From Anolis carolinensis (Eukaryota), in the NCBI RefSeq assembly GCF_035594765.1, contig NC_085842.1, positions 22,234,782 to 22,298,781 on the forward strand: a stretch of 64,000 nucleotides of DNA, read 5' to 3'. Positions 3,421-14,857 of this stretch are shown piece by piece. Below the pieces are notes generated by a model, which saw only the letters and a list, made by a program, of their open reading frames with translations, had not been told where the DNA came from and did not search any database. A program made the translations under genes and the position numbers. Each line of letters begins with the position of its first letter. Within the stretch, counting starts at the first letter, position 1.

Positions 3421-4368
3421 CATGCATTTAAAGATCTTAATAAAGTATCTCAAGGGCCTATTTTAACACACACACACACAATGCGTATTTTAATATATGT
3501 ATTTTGTAGAAATACATTTTAATATGTCCTATATATGTATATATGTGTGTGTGTGCATCTTTGTGTTGTCGAAGGCTTTCATAGCCTGAATCACTGGGCT
3601 GGTGTGAGTTTTATGGGAATAAAAAACAGACGCAGAAGAATATGAGTGGAAACTTGTATGTATATATCATATTTAATAACCTGGACCTACCTGTGCTGAA
3701 AACCCAGCACTGCCAATGTTGGCATTTTATAAAAACATAAGATCCAAGACATGAATAATCCTGTTGTTTTTCTAAAAATAATGTGATCAAATTCAAACCA
3801 GCACCACATTCCTTGCTACCTCAGTGTAGTCTAGGAGAGTGATTTAGGGGCATCCCATGTAACAATTAGTGTTTCCTCATAGTCTGACCAATTCCTCTTC
3901 TTTGAGAATTCACTATTGCAAGATATTAAGTTGAAACTTTTTGTTACAGCAGGAGCAGTTTTATCATCTCTCTTCCATCTCCTGGATCTCTTGCAAGATT
4001 TAATGTCAGGGACCTTTCAAAACATCTATGTCTTCGAAACCATTTTTCTTTTGAAGAGCTCTGCCTCTGATGAAAGCCTTTCCTACTAACAGGTTTAGAT
4101 GTGCCACTTCTCGCCTGATGCATAATTAGTTGCATTCTTTTTCCTGAAGAGTTTTTTCCCACATCAGTCCAAGCATTCAAACAGTTGTACCATGTGAGTT
4201 TTCATACGAATTAACAGTTCTGAAGAGATGCCAAAAGTTCTCACACAGGTCCTCTCCTGTTCAACAAGGTCAGATTGACAGCTGAAGCCTTTCCCACATC
4301 AGGAGCATATAAACAAGTGGACTCCTTAACATGACATTAGGTTACGGGGCCAAACAAAACACTTCCCA

Positions 4369-4422
4369 CTATATCTTCTCCCCTGTGTGGATTCTCTGAT
4401 GGACTCTGAGAGCAGAGCCATG
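4369..4422 (-). pseudogene. Displaced 3' end of ZNF exon A (HGSALRVHQRIHTGEKI*)
   Basis: Matches the end of paralog B; lies on the far side of the Gypsy element. Confidence 0.9.
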
Positions 4423-4793
4423 TGTCATGGAGCCAGATCCCAGGGCTGAATTTCCAAGACCTGAATCTGACTTCATAACATAAACAATCCTGCAAGCACC
4501 TGGCGGGAGAAGATAAAATGAGCCTGGGAACTCAGAGTTGAAAGTGTAAACAATTATAATTGCTGTAGTGTGTGGGAATAGAAATCATGGTGGTAATGTG
4601 ATCCCGAAGGTGGGGTTTGATGATGATATTTGCGTGTGATATTACGTTGCATCAGAAGTGATAAAATTAGATGTATGTAAACATTAGGTCATTCTCGACT
4701 TTTCCAAAGTCATGTATTCTTCAATAAAGATTGTGTTTGAGAGCAGCTATCTTTGATCTGCGTTCAGACTGGTCCTTTGAAGTGAGCCTGACA
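4423..4793 (+). repeat. 5' LTR (371 bp)
   Basis: No difference from 9741-10111 found by eye; GATAAAA 4660-4666, Inr-like TCATTCT around A4691, AATAAA 4723-4728. Confidence 0.97.
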
Positions 4794-4795
4794 TT

Positions 4796-4807
4796 AAAGT
4801 CGAGAAT
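4796..4807 (+). promoter_or_regulatory. Self-priming primer-binding site
   Basis: AAAGTCGAGAAT, 2 nt after the 5' LTR, is the exact reverse complement of ATTCTCGACTTT (4691-4702) at the predicted transcript start; there is no TGG (tRNA CCA) complement. Confidence 0.9.
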
Positions 4808-4847
4808 CCATTTCTCACCCTCCTGCGGAATTCGCAGTGAAGTGATA

Positions 4848-7800
4848 ATGAGCGAAGAAGGAGATCAAAGCCCAAATGAGGCAGAGAGGCCTTTGCAAGG
4901 GGCCCGGCCGAAGAGAGAAGAAACGCTGCAAGCCATAGCTTCCTCTACGGGGTACCCCAGGCCGAACGGCGTGACCCAGAGAATTCCCAGGGGAGGAAGA
5001 GGCGTCTCTGCGGCTGCAGAAACCAGTTGGGGATCTGGAGGAAGTATGCCGGAGACCGTGGCCCTGCGGTTATCCATCCTGGAAACTAATTTATCCAGGC
5101 TGTCGGAAACCGTGGGGAGATTGGTGCCATTATTGGAAGAGAATCTCCAAAAGGAGCCCAGCCGATATGGCGCCGAGAGAGAACCAAGTAAAGGAGATTG
5201 GAGCCAGAGGGGCCAGCGAGCGTCAACGCAGAGTCCCGTGGCGGCAAGGGACGAGGGAGATGAGGAATACTGGCAGGAGCTGCAGTTCCGGGACAGAATG
5301 GCGCGAGAAGTGGAGCGTCAGCGAGCCCTGGGAACTCTGAGGCCGCCATCTCCAACAGAGCTCCCAACCCCCCGAATGGGCGTCGGGGTGGAAAGGCCAC
5401 TGGGGCCAGGGATCGGGTCCAGTGGATTCGCAGACGAAGGCGGAGAGGAGCGGGGGATCCAGGAAGAGGAGGAGGATGTGCCGTACGACGAGGAAAGGCG
5501 AGATGAGGGGGCTACAGCGAGGCCAGTATGCGGATGGGCGGAAGAGCCGACAGCGGCGGCAGACTTTCGGGAGCCGCGCAGAATGACCACCGGAGTGGGG
5601 CGCGGCGTGTTCCAAGGAGCCGCCCGAGGAAACCTGATGCAACCCTTCCCCATGCCTCCCAGACAGCAGCAACGGGCTGCAGAATGGATGCCTAGAAGGG
5701 AAGATCTCAAACTAGAATACGGAGGGGAATCAAATGAACTGAACTTTTTTCTAATTAGCATCAGAGGATACATGGAAGACAATGCACACACATTCCCCTC
5801 CGAGGCAAGCAGGGTTCGAGCCATCGGCAACACACTAAAGCGAGGAGCAGCCAGCTGGTATGTGCAGCTTCATGCCAGACGCGACCCATGCCTGAGGTCA
5901 GTGCCCCGCTTCCTCGCCGCACTGGAAAACCGGTTCAGAGACCGGCTAGAGCAATTGAGGGCTCGAGACCAGCTGAAAGGAATAAAGCAGAGGGACAAAA
6001 CAGTACCCGAGTACGCAGAAGAATTCCTCCACCTCGCGGAAAGGGTACCAGAATGGTCTGAAGTGACCAAAGTGGAATTATTTAAAGAGGGACTACGCCC
6101 CGAGATTTTCAGCTGGGCAGCGCACAGAGACGACCCCGAAACGCTCCAGGGATGGATTCAACTAGCGGGGCGCGTCGAATCCACCCTGGCCCAAGTAAAG
6201 CGCTTCAGGAGCGGCAGCGGCCAGCAAAGACCAGTGGCGAGAGGTCGAGGAGAAACGAGGAAGCAGGAAAGACCCGGAGGGAGGCCGGGGATTCCCTCCA
6301 AAGGAGACGACAACAAACCTAAACCGGGATGCTTTGTATGTGGGAAGACGGGCCATCGAGCAGCAGAATGCTGGGCCCGGAAGGGGGAGCCGCCAAAAGC
6401 CCCAAAGCCCAAGCCAGCAACCGGGAGGCGCGCGGAAGAGGAGGTGCAGGCCCCAGAATCTTCAAAAAAACTGGTGAGTCGGGACAAACGCATGATAGTA
6501 GTGCCAATCTGCCTCTCAGGGCTAGAAAATCGGGCCACCTGCAAGGCATTTGTGGATTGTGGGTGTTCCAGAAACATTATAACCCCGGAGTTAGCAGGAG
6601 CGCTGAAATGCCAGCAGATGGCGCTTGACTCCCCAATTGCATTTTCGCAGCTAGATGGATCAGTCGCTGCTGGGGAAGTGTCTACAAAGGAAATACGGGA
6701 AATCCCATGTAAAATAGGCAAATGGGAAGGAAGGATATCCTTTGTGATAGCCCCTATTGCCACATACCACGTAATATTAGGGATACCATGGCTCGAACAG
6801 GCAAATCCTGAAGTAGATTGGAGAGGAAAAAGCCTAGCATTCAAAGAACAGCAGATGCAATGGGAGATAAGCAAAATTGCGGAAGAGGAGGACGAGGAAG
6901 ATGAAGCAGGGGAAATAGACCCACAGCTATTGCCACCTGAATACAGAGACTTTGTGGATGTTTTCAATCAGAAAGAGGCCAGTAAATTGCCTCCCAAAAG
7001 GAATATAGAAGTAGAAATTGAAATAACCCCAGGAGCAAACTTACCAAAACCAAAAGTGTATCCCATGTCTGTGCAGGAGAAGGAGGAATTGAGGAAATAC
7101 ATTGATAAAAACCTGGCGCGAGGCTTCATTAAGCCATCCAATTCTCCTCTCGGGGCCCCAGTGTTATTTAGGAGAAAGAAAGACAACTCCCTAAGATTGT
7201 GCATTGATTATCGAAATTTAAACGCAATTACTAAGGACAATAAATACCCTATGCCCTTAGTCAAGGATTTAATTACCGTATTGAAGAAAGGGAGCATATT
7301 TACTAAACTGGATTTAATTGAAGCGTATCATAAATTAAGGATCAAACCGGAGGATACTTGGAAAACTGCATTTTCCTGCGCATTCGGCCATTTTGAATAT
7401 GAAATTTTGCCTTTCGGGTTAAAAAACGGAGGCGGCTGCTTTATGCAGCTTATAAATGAAATATTACACCCGTTATTGTACAGAGGGGTGTTCATATTTC
7501 TTGATGATATCTTGATCGTATCTGAAGATAAGGAAAAGCACGTAAAATTGGTCCGGGAAGTTTTGCAGAGACTAAGAGAAGCAAAGCTGTACGCAAAACT
7601 GTCCAAATGTGAATTTAATAAAACTCAAATTGACTTTCTGGGGTATCGGATATCTCCAGAAGGGTTAGCTATGGATCCAGCTAAAGTAGCAGATGTGAAA
7701 GAATGGGGAGTGCCTCAAACAAGGAGGCAATTACAATCATTTCTGGGGTTTGCAAATTTTTACAGACCCTTCATAAAAGGCTTCGCGCAAATAACCGCAC

Positions 7801-9665
7801 CCCTTACAGAACTTTTAAAAACAAAAGGGAAAGGGGAAACAGCAAAAGTGAAAGCTCCTGGCGCCAAACTGAGTTGGACGCCAGAATGCCAAAAGGCATT
7901 CGAAACCTTAAAAGAATGCTTCACTGAAGGACCCATCCTAAAACACCCCGATATCAGGAGCCCTTTCATAATCCATTGCGATGCCTCAGACTGTGCGTAC
8001 GGGGCAGTACTATTGCAAAAAGATCAAAATGGGAACTTAAAACCCTGTGGATATTTGTCACGGAAGTTCAGCGAAACTGAAAAAAGTTGGCCAATATGGG
8101 AAAAAGAGGCATTAGCCATATTAAAAGCCTTAGAATGCTGGCGACACTTCCTCGAAGGAAGCGGAATCCCATTTGAAATTTGGTCTGACCATAAGAACCT
8201 CCAGTATTTAAAGTCTCCTAGAAAATTGTCCCCCAAACAAATTAGATGGGCGCAATACTTCAGCAGATTCGATTTCCAATTAAAGTTTTTTCAAGGGAAG
8301 CAGAATGTCTTGGCAGATGCTCTTTCACGCATGCCTCAACACGAAGGCATAACCACAGCAAAAGAGGGGACAATATTCTCTGACAAACAATGGGGCTTAG
8401 CCGTCAGGACCAGAGCACAAACCCAAAAGGAGGACACGGCTTTTGTTGAACTCGGCGGGGAAGAAAACTGGGGAAATGAACTGAAACAGTATTATGAAGG
8501 TGATCAATGGATCGCATCCAACGCAGAAAAGGGGGAACAGAAGGGGGGATTTTGGTTTGTAAACAAGAAACTGTATATCCCAGCAATGTTAAGGATTAAG
8601 ATTCTGCATCGTTTCCACAACAACCAGAGCGCTGGTCATACAGGAATTACAAAAACAACAAAGGCAATAGCAAAGCATTGTTGGTGGCCAGGAATGAGGA
8701 AGGACATAAAGAATCATGTTGTTCAATGTGATGATTGTGCCAGAAATAAATCGGGGGGAGGGAAGCCTATGGGATTGTTACAAACAGTAGCGGAACCTAC
8801 CAGACCTTGGGAATGTGTAGCTATGGACTTTGTGGGAGAACTGCCGGTTAGCAAAGGACATCGTTATATCTGGACAGTATTAGACCTGTTTTCTAAACAG
8901 GCCCACTTTATAGCGCTGACGAAACTACCATCGGCTGAGAAACTAGCTGAATTGTACATAAATCATATTTACAAACTACATGGATGTCCCAGTAGAGTAG
9001 TTAGTGACAGAGGAGTACAGTTCACAGCAAAATTTTGGGAAAAATTCTTGGAAATGCTAGGAGCAGAAAGGAGTCTAAGTTCTGCTTTTCACCCCATGAC
9101 AAACGGGGCGGTAGAACGTACTCAGCAAACGCTTGGGCAGTTCCTTCGAATGTACTCTAACGTGAGACAAAATGACTGGTCTAGGTGGTTGGCTTTTGCG
9201 GAACTAGCCTTTAATTCAACTATACATTCAGCAACAAATAAAACCCCCTTTGAAGTAGTTTACGGGTATGAAATACAGCCTTTACCCCAGTTGCCAAGGT
9301 GGACAGAAAATGAGGAAACAGAGGCAGGGAAATGGAAAACGCAAATGCTAGAATGCTGGAGTCAAGTGACTGCATCCTTAAAGGAAGCGCACAAAAAGTA
9401 TAAAGCGTTCGCAGACAGAAAGAGGGTGGAAGGCGATAAATTAAATGAAGGAGATCTAGTGTGGTTAAGTACCCAAAACATCAAATTGGGGCTACCTTCG
9501 AGAAAACTGGGCCCCAAATATATTGGACCATTCAGAATACAAGGTGTTATCAATGAAGTGACTTTCCAGTTGGCATTGCCAAAAAGTTTAGGGAAAATAC
9601 ACCCAGTATTCCATCGCAGCTTACTGAAAAAGTATATGGGGACTTTGGACAAAATGGACACATAG
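4848..9665 (+). CDS. Gag-Pol polyprotein, 1605 aa, single reading frame
   Basis: First ATG after the LTR at 4848; retrotransposon/PEG10-like capsid, CCHC knuckle CFVCGKTGHRAAEC, protease FVDCGCS, RT PFGLKN/FLDD, RNase H (CDAS, EKEAL, SDHKNL), integrase HHCC + DDE (MDFV, SDRG, ERTQQ) + GPY/F (GPF..HPVFH); no chromodomain. Confidence 0.96.
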   Translation: MSEEGDQSPNEAERPLQGARPKREETLQAIASSTGYPRPNGVTQRIPRGGRGVSAAAETSWGSGGSMPETVALRLSILETNLSRLSETVGRLVPLLEENLQKEPSRYGAEREPSKGDWSQRGQRASTQSPVAARDEGDEEYWQELQFRDRMAREVERQRALGTLRPPSPTELPTPRMGVGVERPLGPGIGSSGFADEGGEERGIQEEEEDVPYDEERRDEGATARPVCGWAEEPTAAADFREPRRMTTGVGRGVFQGAARGNLMQPFPMPPRQQQRAAEWMPRREDLKLEYGGESNELNFFLISIRGYMEDNAHTFPSEASRVRAIGNTLKRGAASWYVQLHARRDPCLRSVPRFLAALENRFRDRLEQLRARDQLKGIKQRDKTVPEYAEEFLHLAERVPEWSEVTKVELFKEGLRPEIFSWAAHRDDPETLQGWIQLAGRVESTLAQVKRFRSGSGQQRPVARGRGETRKQERPGGRPGIPSKGDDNKPKPGCFVCGKTGHRAAECWARKGEPPKAPKPKPATGRRAEEEVQAPESSKKLVSRDKRMIVVPICLSGLENRATCKAFVDCGCSRNIITPELAGALKCQQMALDSPIAFSQLDGSVAAGEVSTKEIREIPCKIGKWEGRISFVIAPIATYHVILGIPWLEQANPEVDWRGKSLAFKEQQMQWEISKIAEEEDEEDEAGEIDPQLLPPEYRDFVDVFNQKEASKLPPKRNIEVEIEITPGANLPKPKVYPMSVQEKEELRKYIDKNLARGFIKPSNSPLGAPVLFRRKKDNSLRLCIDYRNLNAITKDNKYPMPLVKDLITVLKKGSIFTKLDLIEAYHKLRIKPEDTWKTAFSCAFGHFEYEILPFGLKNGGGCFMQLINEILHPLLYRGVFIFLDDILIVSEDKEKHVKLVREVLQRLREAKLYAKLSKCEFNKTQIDFLGYRISPEGLAMDPAKVADVKEWGVPQTRRQLQSFLGFANFYRPFIKGFAQITAPLTELLKTKGKGETAKVKAPGAKLSWTPECQKAFETLKECFTEGPILKHPDIRSPFIIHCDASDCAYGAVLLQKDQNGNLKPCGYLSRKFSETEKSWPIWEKEALAILKALECWRHFLEGSGIPFEIWSDHKNLQYLKSPRKLSPKQIRWAQYFSRFDFQLKFFQGKQNVLADALSRMPQHEGITTAKEGTIFSDKQWGLAVRTRAQTQKEDTAFVELGGEENWGNELKQYYEGDQWIASNAEKGEQKGGFWFVNKKLYIPAMLRIKILHRFHNNQSAGHTGITKTTKAIAKHCWWPGMRKDIKNHVVQCDDCARNKSGGGKPMGLLQTVAEPTRPWECVAMDFVGELPVSKGHRYIWTVLDLFSKQAHFIALTKLPSAEKLAELYINHIYKLHGCPSRVVSDRGVQFTAKFWEKFLEMLGAERSLSSAFHPMTNGAVERTQQTLGQFLRMYSNVRQNDWSRWLAFAELAFNSTIHSATNKTPFEVVYGYEIQPLPQLPRWTENEETEAGKWKTQMLECWSQVTASLKEAHKKYKAFADRKRVEGDKLNEGDLVWLSTQNIKLGLPSRKLGPKYIGPFRIQGVINEVTFQLALPKSLGKIHPVFHRSLLKKYMGTLDKMDT

Positions 9666-9688
9666 AGTTATTGTTTGATTTGTTTCAG

Positions 9689-9796
9689 AACTATGATGAA
9701 AGAAGAACCGAAGAGGAGGACGAAGAAAACGAGGGCGCCATGTCATGGAGCCAGATCCCAGGGCTGAATTTCCAAGACCTGAATCTGACTTCATAA
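9689..9796 (+). CDS. Predicted second exon of spliced Gag (NYDERRTEEEDEENEGAMSWSQIPGLNFQDLNLTS*)
   Basis: Acceptor TTGTTTGATTTGTTTCAG ends at 9688; in frame with the phase-0 donor CTG|GTGAGT at 6473/6474; open for 35 codons into U3. Confidence 0.6.
   Translation, partial: NYDERRTEEEDEENEGAMSWSQIPGLNFQDLNLTS
9698..9735 (+). promoter_or_regulatory. Polypurine tract region
   Basis: Purine-rich GAAAGAAGAACCGAAGAGGAGGACGAAGAAAACGAGGG ending 5 nt before the 3' LTR. Confidence 0.75.
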
Positions 9797-10111
9797 CATA
9801 AACAATCCTGCAAGCACCTGGCGGGAGAAGATAAAATGAGCCTGGGAACTCAGAGTTGAAAGTGTAAACAATTATAATTGCTGTAGTGTGTGGGAATAGA
9901 AATCATGGTGGTAATGTGATCCCGAAGGTGGGGTTTGATGATGATATTTGCGTGTGATATTACGTTGCATCAGAAGTGATAAAATTAGATGTATGTAAAC
10001 ATTAGGTCATTCTCGACTTTTCCAAAGTCATGTATTCTTCAATAAAGATTGTGTTTGAGAGCAGCTATCTTTGATCTGCGTTCAGACTGGTCCTTTGAAG
10101 TGAGCCTGACA
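9741..10111 (+). repeat. 3' LTR (371 bp)
   Basis: Direct repeat of 4423-4793, preceded by the polypurine tract and followed by TSD CCATG. Confidence 0.97.
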
Positions 10112-11114
10112 CCATGACTAAAAGTACTGCCACACTGTGAGCACTGGAAGATTTCCCTGGAGTCCGAACATTTGGGCGTCATATCCGTGTGAGTCCGCAC
10201 ATGGAAAACCAGCTCTGAAATGACTTCAAAGGCTTTCCTGCAGACAAAACAGGCTAATGAATCTCCTCTTGAGTGGGTTCTCTCATGTTCGATAAGTTCA
10301 GACTTTTTGTTGAAGCTCTTCCCACAGTAGGAACACATCGCCATGTGCGTTCTTTCGTGGGCTCTCAAGCGCGGGCTGCAGCTGAAACACATCCCGCAAT
10401 ACGAACATTTGTACTGGTTTTCGCTGGTGTGAGTTCTCCGATGGACTCTGAGGCTTGAGAAGGTCCCAAAGTTTTCTGCGCACTTTGAACATTTATAAGG
10501 TTTCTCCCCTCTGTGGAGCCCCTGGTGCTGAAGGAAACTCGATATCTTCATGTATGCCTTCCCGCATATTGGACACACGTGTATTTTCTTCCTTCTCTGT
10601 TTTTCCTGCTGGGTGTTGTAGACAAAGGTATTCCCGCAAGTTGAGCATCTGTGTGGCTTCTGGCCCATGTGGATTCTTTCGCTTTCTCCGCAGTTCGAAC
10701 AGGTGTACAGTTTCTCCCCGACGTGGCTTCTTTCATGAGACAGAAGGTCAGAGCTGCTGCTGAAGCTTTGGCCACAATGCCAGCACTGATATGGCTTCTC
10801 CTTCTCCTCTTCATGGGGGCTGTTGGGCATTGTGAGGTGCAAACTCAGACCAAAGTTTTCGTCACGTTCCTCATATTTCACATTCTGAACCTCCTGGATG
10901 TTGGGTTCATTTTCGGTTTTGCAAACCACCTGTGGGCAAACCAACTGACACTCTCTCTCCTCTTCATCCCCTCCATTCTGCCTCTCTGGCTTATACTGAC
11001 TCTCATCAGGTTCTTGATCTGTTTTCAATAACATCACTGGGAGCTCCATTTGCTCAGGATGCTCCAAGATGGGTTTCTTCTCCTCCTCACTTTCTTCCAT
11101 CCACCCTCCATCTG
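10039..11114 (-). pseudogene. ZNF exon A: duplicated C2H2 terminal exon, last finger broken by the Gypsy insertion
   Basis: Near-identical to 24738-25774; acceptor CAGCAG at ~11115; 6 intact fingers, then the frame runs into the antisense LTR; no SCAN exon of its own upstream. Confidence 0.8.
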
Positions 11115-11645
11115 CTGAAAGAGAGACAAATATACAAAACATGAAACAGAGCTTTCCAAGATGAGTTAACTAGACAACACAACATAAATAAAGTAAATCA
11201 AAAACAACATGCTGAAAACAGAGGATTTCCAGACATGAATCAATAAGGGGCAGTAATGTCTCCGAACCAATGATTCCCCCAGTCAGGAAGAAACCAGGAC
11301 ATTAGCAAGGCCATTAATGCTAATCAAGGTGATTAAATACAACATTCATACTGGCCTCCAACAGACAAGAGTTCTTTCTCCCACCCTGGACCTTCCACAG
11401 ATATATAAACTTCCTTGCTTAGTTTTTTCCAATATACCCCACAACCTCTGAGGATGCCTGCCATAGATGTGGGTGAAACGTACTGAGAGAATGCTTCTGG
11501 AACATGGCCATACAGCCCGGAAAACACACAACAACCCTGTGATTCTGGCCATAAAACATAAAACATAAAAAAAACAATTCCTCAACCTTATTTTCACTAA
11601 TTTCACAGATAATATGAGGATATGTCCAATTTTGACCATTTATAG

Positions 11646-13493: not shown

Positions 13494-14524
13494 TCATTTC
13501 TCACCTCTATGGACTCTCTGGTGTGTCTTGAAGGCTGAGCCATGTTTAAAGTTATCTCCACATTCCAAGCAAATGAGGGTTTTCTTGGTATCAGGGCACT
13601 CTAGTTTCTTATCCTTGTGAGTCCGCACATGAGCCATCAGTTCCGAGTTGAATTTGAAGGCCTTCCCGCAGTCGAAACACACAAATGAATCCTCCCTGGC
13701 GTGGGTTCTCTCATGTTCAATAAGCTCAGACTTATTTCTGAAGCTTTTCCCACAGCTGGAGCAAACCACCACGTGGATTCGCTCGTGGGCTCTCAAACAC
13801 GCAATACTACTGAAACACATTTCGCACTGCAAACATTTATACTGCTTCTCTCCCGTGTGAGTCCGGCAGTGAGTTCGGAAATTCGAGTAGTTTCCAAAGT
13901 TTTCTCCACACGTCAAGCATTTGTAAGGTTTCTCTCCCCAGTGGACTCCCTGGTGTTTAAGCAAACCCGATCTGTGCATGTACTTTTCCCCACATTCTGC
14001 ACAAGTATGGAATTTCTTCCCTCCATTTGTTTCCTCTTGAGGGTTGCAGCCAAAGGTGTTCCCACAGTGAGAACATTTGTGGGGCCTCTGTCCCATGTGG
14101 ATCCTCTCACTTCCTCCACAGTGGGAGCATCTATACAACTGTTCGCCCACGTGGTTTCGCTCATGAGACAGAAGATCTGAGCTGCTGCTGAAGCTTTGGC
14201 CGCAGTGCCAACACTTGTACGGCTTCTCCAATTCAAGAGAGCTCTCCTGCGTGCCTTGTTTGCATCTATCATATTTCATATCGACATCCTGTTGGATAGT
14301 GGACTCATCACCACCTTTACAACCACCGTGTGAATCAACATACAGATCCCTTTTCTCCTCTGTGGCATTCCCATTCTGCCCGTCTGTCTTCTGTTGACCT
14401 TTCTCAGATTCTCCCTGACACAGAAAATGGTTATCATTTTCTGTTTTCAGGAATGCTGACATTTTCTCAGGTCTATCCAGGAACGGATTTTCTTCCTTCC
14501 TGTCTTTCAGCCACTCACCGATTT
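13494..14524 (-). CDS. Gene C coding exon 3 (7 C2H2 fingers plus 2 degenerate); full protein 618 aa
   Basis: Acceptor TTTCTCCTAG at 14525, phase 1, in frame with ORF 13494..14462. Confidence 0.9.
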
Positions 14525-14857
14525 CTAGGAGAAATATCAGAATGCAAAAATATATGGATGCTGAAGTCCCATTATATACAATGGTGTAGTAAAATGTTAT
14601 CCCTTGTATAAAATGGAAAAGTCAAGCTTTCCTTTTGAGATTTTTTTTCCAACGGGAAGGGATTTTCAAGCTATGAATGGTAGATTCTATTAATATGGAG
14701 GGCCATATTTTAATAAATAACTAATAGCCAATTAAAAGACCATACACAGAAAAGTATCAGATAGTAGGTTCTTCTAAATACAGTCAGTTCCTGAGTTACA
14801 AACAATATAGGTTCTGTAAGTTTGTTTTTAGGTTGAATCTTTATGTAAGTTTAAACA

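What the first reader, a model, noticed from the sequence alone, without database searches (positions are those of the whole stretch)
4691..10111. Spliced RNA would keep every cis signal, predicting pol-less 'spliced' daughter elements
The predicted intron (6474-9688) excludes R, U5, the self-primer, the PBS, the PPT and U3. The ~2.2-kb spliced RNA could therefore be packaged and reverse-transcribed in trans. Inference: the genome should contain ~2.5-kb LTR-gag-LTR copies with precise intron loss, a direct route to gag-only non-autonomous elements and gag-derived genes.
Basis: inference. Interest (0 to 1): 0.7.

Follow-up and report, generated by a model that had tools for sequence, protein, structure and literature searches.

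The report
Lizard retrotransposon splices, leaves no daughters
A young lizard jumping gene has a precisely spliced form, lacking its enzyme region, in two likely-RNA sequencing runs, and this form likely serves to make extra coat protein; none of about 1,680 genomic copies of it and its sister family checked by motif has lost that region, so the short RNA is likely kept out of copying.

Summary
The element (window 4423-10111) is an intact, young, single-ORF Ty3/gypsy retrotransposon with a Tf1/sushi-type self-primer; RefSeq names of its proteins say Anolis carolinensis. The anatomy is confirmed. The intron 6474-9688 spares R, U5, self-primer, PBS, the purine tract and U3. The splice is supported: a precise GT..AG joint in two RNA-guessed runs of one study, not in two deep DNA-like runs, and RefSeq models of a 577-aa Gag. 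The prediction fails. No intron-less copy was found among 905 copies by donor motif, 770 by exon-2 motif, or 777 of a sister family with the same splice layout (95% upper bound about 0.3-0.4% each). In 123 copies, 23 disabling lesions are all private and shared pol changes are mostly silent, so lineages that spread kept their own Pol. Best reading: copia-style splicing makes Gag-only mRNA, and only Pol-making RNA is copied (cis preference). Whole-pol splicing in a vertebrate Ty3/gypsy was not found in ten paper searches. The scan noted short-intron Gag switches in gypsy elements on other DNA. Target duplications are mostly 6 bp, not 5.

The parts
4418..4422 (.). Left target-site duplication CCATG (5 bp here; the family mostly makes 6 bp)
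4423..4793 (+). 5' LTR, 371 bp, identical to the 3' LTR; ends TGTCATG..CCTGACA fit the Sushi end motifs
   Evidence: motifs from PMC3601003 Table 3 passage
4691..4702 (+). Self-primer, predicted 5' end of the RNA, about 30 nt after an AT-rich box at 4660-4667
   Evidence: perfect complement of the PBS in 120 of 124 copies, four covarying types in this family and a fifth in the sister family; RNA start not mapped
4796..4807 (+). Primer-binding site, complementary to the self-primer
4848..9665 (+). Single Gag-Pol ORF, 1605 aa: capsid, CCHC knuckle, PR, RT, RNase H, IN, SH3; no chromodomain hit
4848..6473 (+). Gag coding part of exon 1 (542 codons, ends at a codon boundary)
6474..9688 (+). Optional 3,215-nt GT..AG intron covering PR, RT, RNase H, IN and the pol stop
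   Evidence: joint in runs X13 and X16; donor GTGAGT in 135 of 135 motif-matched copies; retained in all genomic copies tested
9667..9688 (+). T-rich 3' splice-site tract between the pol stop and the purine tract; removed by the splice
   Evidence: a second role in plus-strand priming is untested
9689..9796 (+). Exon 2 coding part: 35-aa acidic tail that reads through the purine tract into U3 to a TAA stop
   Evidence: 35 or 27 aa in 60 of 61 copies, 30 aa in one
9698..9735 (+). Purine-rich tract holding the likely PPT (exact primer not mapped)
9741..10111 (+). 3' LTR with AATAAA at 10041-10046
10112..10116 (.). Right target-site duplication CCATG

Best explanation
This single-ORF Ty3/gypsy element has a spliced form lacking all of pol, which likely serves as a Gag-only mRNA, while copying is likely confined to the unspliced RNA that makes its own Pol, so no intron-less daughters were found. 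Shown: splice sites conserved over subfamilies 84-99% alike and in a sister family 67% alike; a precise joint in two runs; an in-frame acidic tail ending in U3; zero spliced DNA copies by three kinds of search; no shared disabling lesion. Inferred: that the two runs are RNA; that the short RNA is translated and raises the Gag:Pol ratio, as in Drosophila copia; that Gag-Pol captures the RNA it is translated from (cis preference) while spliced RNA goes to ribosomes.
For: Splice: joint skipping 3,215 nt with CT..AC ends on minus-strand copy L062 in X13 and X16 (depth 40 and 46), 0 in X1 and X6; same joint seen as inserted letters. RefSeq XP_062829673.1 equals the window's 542-aa Gag plus the 35-aa tail; 8 of 8 NCBI models of this family and 2 of 2 of the sister family that were read for it carry the junction. 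Donor codons invariant in 123 copies while neighbours vary. No daughters; LTR-PBS junctions (745) do not exceed exon-2 matches (770), and 23 PBS hits lacking or oddly spaced from the exon-2 motif were none spliced. Cis need: 98 of 123 copies have an intact ORF, 23 lesions are all private; pol variants shared by two or more copies are 110 replacement to 441 silent against 140 to 191 for singletons, p 2e-12. From the singleton rate (16 stops or frameshifts per 293 silent changes) about 36 would be expected among 667 shared silent changes; 0 seen. Precedent: no spliced genomic copia copy in one strain (10.1101/2023.05.27.542554, passages); none for BARE1 (PMC3735527, section 16 part 1).
Against: The joint rests on one contig in each of two runs of one study, with 28 nt on the short side, and the RNA label is the tool's guess; X12, X17 and X19 (also RNA-guessed) listed no such joint. 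It belongs to a 96%-alike subfamily, not provably to the window copy. RefSeq models are predictions and their read support was not seen. No protein data. The absence of spread of defective copies shows a cis need for the ORF but does not separate co-translational capture from a signal in the intron or from decay of broken RNAs. Motif searches were exact-match and miss older, more decayed copies; peptide searches scored 150 of 3,727 and 82 of 10,529 candidates. One assembly of one animal was searched. 22 of the 123 copies were picked as nearest to the intact window copy.
Confidence: 0.65

Rival explanations
1. The splice disarms the RNA directly: a needed cis signal lies in the intron, most simply the T-rich splice-site tract just upstream of the purine tract, or a packaging or dimerisation signal in pol. 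Spliced RNA could then enter particles but would not finish a copy.
For: In both families the acceptor sits between the pol stop and the purine tract; in the sister family only 22 nt separate it from the LTR, so the T-rich tract abuts the purine run. A U-rich element upstream of the PPT is recalled as needed in Ty1 and some retroviruses (recalled; two look-ups failed).
Against: It does not explain why point-defective copies, which keep all signals, also never spread. Silent-site variation along pol shows no clearly protected window at 150-nt scale. It can hold together with the best explanation.
Confidence: 0.2
2. Splicing happens mainly in body tissues, or is imposed by the host as a brake, and germ cells make almost only unspliced RNA, so spliced copies are never inherited.
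For: Tissue of the two runs is unknown; host-regulated splicing of P and gypsy in Drosophila is described in passages seen.
Against: Donor, acceptor and an in-frame tail are kept across subfamilies, a sister family and A. sagrei models, which points to selection on the element where it replicates, the germ line.
Confidence: 0.1
3. One reading: spliced RNA is packaged in trans and gives gag-only two-LTR daughters, which exist but were missed (old, rare, polymorphic or in other species).
For: All named signals are retained; copia's short RNA can be reverse-transcribed though disfavoured (passage citing Yoshioka 1990); A. sagrei Gag-only models could not be checked against DNA.
Against: 0 of 905, 0 of 770, 0 of 777; none of 6 resolved internal deletions has GT..AG ends, all have 4-15 nt microhomology.
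Confidence: 0.05

Closest known systems
Drosophila melanogaster copia 2.1-kb Gag RNA (passages in PMC5580714, PMC3735527, 10.1101/2023.05.27.542554; the primary papers were not read)
   Same: Single ORF; an optional ~3-kb intron removes all of pol; the short RNA keeps both ends; no spliced genomic copy was found in the strain checked.
   Different: Copia is Ty1/copia and tRNA-primed (recalled); this is a self-priming vertebrate Ty3/gypsy, and its Gag tail runs through the purine tract into U3.
BARE1 of barley (PMC3735527; abstract, section 16 part 1) and EVADE-type Ty1/copia of Arabidopsis (PMC5580714; passages)
   Same: Splicing gives Gag-only mRNA; spliced RNA is not copied into the genome.
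   Different: Short intron with frameshift; exclusion is explained by a second promoter without R (BARE1) or early termination (EVADE). Here the spliced RNA is predicted to keep R and the LTR poly(A) site, so exclusion needs another cause. BARE2 spreads in trans; no such parasite was seen here.
Tf1/sushi group of Ty3/gypsy (PMC6317226, PMC7175516, PMC4600332, PMC3601003; passages)
   Same: Self-priming PBS, Sushi-type LTR ends, single ORF as in Tf1, Tf2-type SH3 domain.
   Different: Tf1 gets excess Gag by degrading Pol; PEG10 uses a frameshift (PMC11011659 passage). No chromodomain hit here; TSD mostly 6 bp.
Spliced Ty3/gypsy transcripts: Ogre, CRR, env RNAs of Athila, Bagy2 and gypsy (passages)
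   Same: Splicing inside a Ty3/gypsy element.
   Different: Those splice between ORFs, remove rt only, or make Env; none of the passages describes removal of all of pol for Gag.

Membership tests
Ty3/gypsy (Metaviridae) | LTRs with TG..CA and domain order PR-RT-RH-IN | tested here: met
   best solved relative is Ty3 Gag-Pol, E 5e-128
Tf1/sushi group | PBS complementary to the element's own 5' end (self-priming) | tested here: met
   120 of 124 copies perfect, five covarying types over two families; RNA 5' end not mapped
Tf1/sushi group | LTR end motifs TGTYANR..CNTNACA | tested here: met
   TGTCATG..CCTGACA against PMC3601003 Table 3
Tf1/sushi group | Placement of RT in the clade by phylogeny | not tested
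   no named reference set of RTs was at hand
Chromovirus in the strict sense | Chromodomain at the integrase C-terminus | tested here: not met
   ORF ends 9 residues after SH3_Tf2-1; no chromo hit at E 0.001
Copia-type spliced-Gag strategy | Optional intron that removes pol and gives a Gag-only frame with a stop | tested here: met
Copia-type spliced-Gag strategy | Short RNA translated, Gag in excess | not testable with these tools
   no protein or ribosome data
Copia-type spliced-Gag strategy | Ty1/copia superfamily (IN before RT) | tested here: not met
   works like copia, is not a copia
Spliced gag-only non-autonomous elements | Two-LTR genomic copies with TSD and precise intron loss | tested here: not met
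   0 of 905, 0 of 770, 0 of 777

The most novel reading that the evidence does not exclude
A squamate-wide lineage of self-priming Ty3/gypsy elements has replaced frameshifting by whole-pol splicing and copies, LINE-1-like, only the RNA that makes its own Pol; the acceptor sits just before the PPT so that one cut both makes Gag mRNA and removes a replication signal. Short Gag models of five snake species end a few residues after a Met where polyprotein relatives read M-V-S, the same donor-like position (protein models only).
Probability: 0.3. Interest if true: 0.65.

Novelty: new variant of a known kind. Interest (0 to 1): 0.42.

Why it matters
How an LTR element picks the RNA to copy from the RNA to translate is little known outside a few models. 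Here the spliced RNA keeps every named signal and is still absent from about 1,680 insertions, a sharp natural case. It also extends the copia way of making excess Gag to a vertebrate Ty3/gypsy group related to the sources of domesticated gag genes, while arguing against splicing-plus-retrotransposition as an easy route to such genes in this genome. In practice it explains over a hundred 'uncharacterized' anole RefSeq proteins (clusters of 89 and 27 members) as spliced transposon Gag.

Tried and rejected
Whole-element DNA search returned only 23 scored full-length copies of 2,627 candidates and cannot show short ones. No RNA holder is on record in the run list; depth of contigs was not used as expression. 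Joints in X1 have short sides, unknown middles and GAT(C) letters, read as ligation products, not deletions. The one non-AG exon-2 hit (L094) and the one non-T hit at -4 (L095) are point variants with intron sequence upstream; the two sister-family hits are one rearranged copy with a point change; the seven loose donor hits have no similarity to the element, and the reversed control gave three. Cryptic splicing as source of internal deletions: rejected for 6 of 7 (one not resolved by the script). A window of protected silent sites in pol: none clear. A. sagrei polyproteins to confirm the splice there: none found among longer proteins. Ten paper searches gave no report of whole-pol Gag splicing in a vertebrate Ty3/gypsy; subscription papers and supplements were not seen. 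The corn-snake OCA2 insertion is a copia and unrelated. Two papers on U-rich tracts upstream of the PPT were not held.

Full report
What the element is. Window 4423-10111 holds two identical 371-bp LTRs with a CCATG duplication and one 1,605-codon ORF: capsid, CCHC knuckle, protease, RT, RNase H, integrase, Tf2-type SH3. The closest solved relative is Ty3 Gag-Pol. Its Gag is identical, over the region searched, to RefSeq XP_062829673.1 of Anolis carolinensis, on a contig as long as G000:C2. The family is young and large: 23 scored full-length copies at 99-100%, 905 donor-motif matches, 745 LTR-PBS junctions. A sister family, 67% alike in DNA over pol, has 777 exon-2 matches.

Cis signals. Bases 4691-4702 are complementary to 4796-4807 and close a long stem (z -3.4). 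Primer and PBS match perfectly in 120 of 124 copies where the LTR end was called, in four sequence types; the sister family has a fifth. Such covariation is strong support for Tf1/sushi-type self-priming (PMC6317226, PMC4600332, PMC7175516; passages). The RNA start was not mapped. The purine tract (9698-9735) and U3 lie after the acceptor. The TSD is not 5 bp as a rule: of 147 stretches, 124 had a called LTR end; TSDs were 6 bp in 96, 5 bp in 14, 4 bp in 1, absent in 4 and not callable in 9. In the sister family 9 of 12 were 6 bp, 2 were 5 bp, 1 not called.

Is the splice real? The donor reads GTGAGT in 135 of 135 motif-matched copies; its two codons show no variant in 123 copies while flanking codons vary. 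Exon 2 is an in-frame acidic tail of 35 or 27 residues in 60 of 61 copies. Seven runs were laid (X13 twice). X13 and X16, both guessed as RNA and from one study, each hold one contig with a joint skipping 3,215 nt with GT..AG ends on the element strand (depth 40 and 46; 28 nt on the short side); X1 and X6, far deeper and DNA-like, show 0 for that row. X12, X17 and X19 listed no such joint on the window copy. RefSeq models carry the junction in 8 of 8 family models and 2 of 2 sister-family models read. The sister family has TTG|GTAAGT at the same codon and its acceptor 22 nt before the LTR. A. sagrei models of two further families end in the same Leu, acidic run, Met-Ser pattern, unchecked against DNA. 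The splice is thus well supported, though not by a run recorded as RNA.

Are there spliced daughters? Donor side: the end of exon 1 is followed by GT in 555 (narrow motif) and 905 (broad motif) places, and by anything without T at +2 in 0 and 7 places; the 7 have no similarity to the element. Acceptor side: exon 2 is preceded by AG in 769 places and by another base plus G in 1; a test at -4 found 1; both are point variants with intron upstream. Sister family: 775 AG and 2 GG, the latter one rearranged, intron-bearing copy. A peptide across the junction matched only in halves (150 of 3,727 candidates scored); the sister family's spliced model matched to residue 521 of 529 at most (82 of 10,529 scored). 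Among the first 100 listed LTR-PBS junctions, 23 lacked the exon-2 motif or were oddly spaced by my comparison of the lists; all were fetched and none is spliced. Upper 95% bounds are 0.33% (905, arithmetic), 0.39% (770) and 0.38% (777; one search gives the figures for 771 and 777). Six resolved internal deletions have 4-15 nt microhomology and no GT..AG placement; a seventh was not resolved. Limits: exact motifs miss decayed copies; one assembly.

Why none? In 123 copies compared with the window copy, 98 have an intact ORF. The 23 lesions (8 stops, 8 frameshifts, 7 breaks) are each found once. Pol variants shared by two or more copies are 110 replacement to 441 silent; singletons are 140 to 191 (p 2e-12). 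Free complementation in trans would let broken lineages spread: at the singleton rate about 36 shared stops or frameshifts are expected, and none is seen. The 123 are not a random draw: 22 nearest to the window copy, the rest taken along contig C1 by motif, plus one from C4; 47 of the 60 taken in order along C1 are intact. So a lineage spreads only with its own ORF. The simplest mechanism is capture of the unspliced RNA by the Gag-Pol made from it, with spliced RNA used only for Gag; this step is inferred. A signal lost with the intron, such as the T-rich tract abutting the purine tract, may add to it and is untested; its precedent in Ty1 and retroviruses is recalled, not read.

Comparison. 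Drosophila copia removes a ~3-kb pol intron for Gag; its short RNA is disfavoured for reverse transcription and no spliced genomic copy was found in one strain (10.1101/2023.05.27.542554, passages; PMC5580714, passages). I recall one report of a spliced copia copy in the genome, not checked. BARE1 spliced copies could not be amplified from barley DNA (PMC3735527, abstract and section 16 part 1). Tf1 uses Pol degradation (PMC7175516, passages). PMC5580714 found no conserved splicing in Arabidopsis Ty3/gypsy. PMC11011659 (passages) notes an anole element without a frameshift, with no mention of splicing in the passages seen. Ten searches found no account of this in vertebrates. Among next-closest Gag proteins, some lizard models end in G-N-x-x-L-L-like tails recalled as typical of frameshifting elements, while models from five snake species end just after a Met where relatives continue M-V-S: a lead only. 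Earlier scan notes describe short-intron Gag switches in gypsy elements of other genomes (not tested here).

Verdict. Observation largely right; prediction refuted in this genome. What remains is a copia-like Gag splice in a vertebrate self-priming Ty3/gypsy with strict exclusion of the spliced RNA: a new variant of a known kind, interest 0.42.

Noticed in passing
window 4423-10111 and 147 fetched copies: Target duplications are mostly 6 bp with a 5-bp minority in both families (96:14 and 9:2); 6 bp is 0.4% among plant LTR elements (PMC6317226 passage).
   Followed up: partly
window 4300-4417 and 10112-11169, minus strand: The element is inserted antisense inside a coding exon of a C2H2 zinc-finger gene; finger sequence continues on the far side. 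A paralogous exon lies at 13494-14621.
   Followed up: partly
runs X13 and X16 at window 9689-9694: Loose contig ends join foreign sequence at or next to the acceptor, suggesting that host exons splice into the element's 3' splice site.
   Followed up: no
L137:5685-8051 (G000:C1 near 248.105 Mb): A sister-family copy is an inverted rearrangement with an LTR at each end, both halves sharing one private change; it looks like a product of self-integration.
   Followed up: partly
G000:C3:71012545-71033414; L124: Head-to-tail runs of element copies about 5.3 kb apart, and a tandem sister-family copy.
   Followed up: no
RefSeq models: Many 'uncharacterized' anole proteins, and one labelled as an RPA 32 kDa isoform (XP_062818535.1), are spliced transposon Gag.
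   Followed up: partly
P0104, P0112, P0115, P0116, P0146 (snake models): Short Gag models stop a few residues after a Met where polyprotein relatives read M-V-S, a possible splice donor at the same place.
   Followed up: partly
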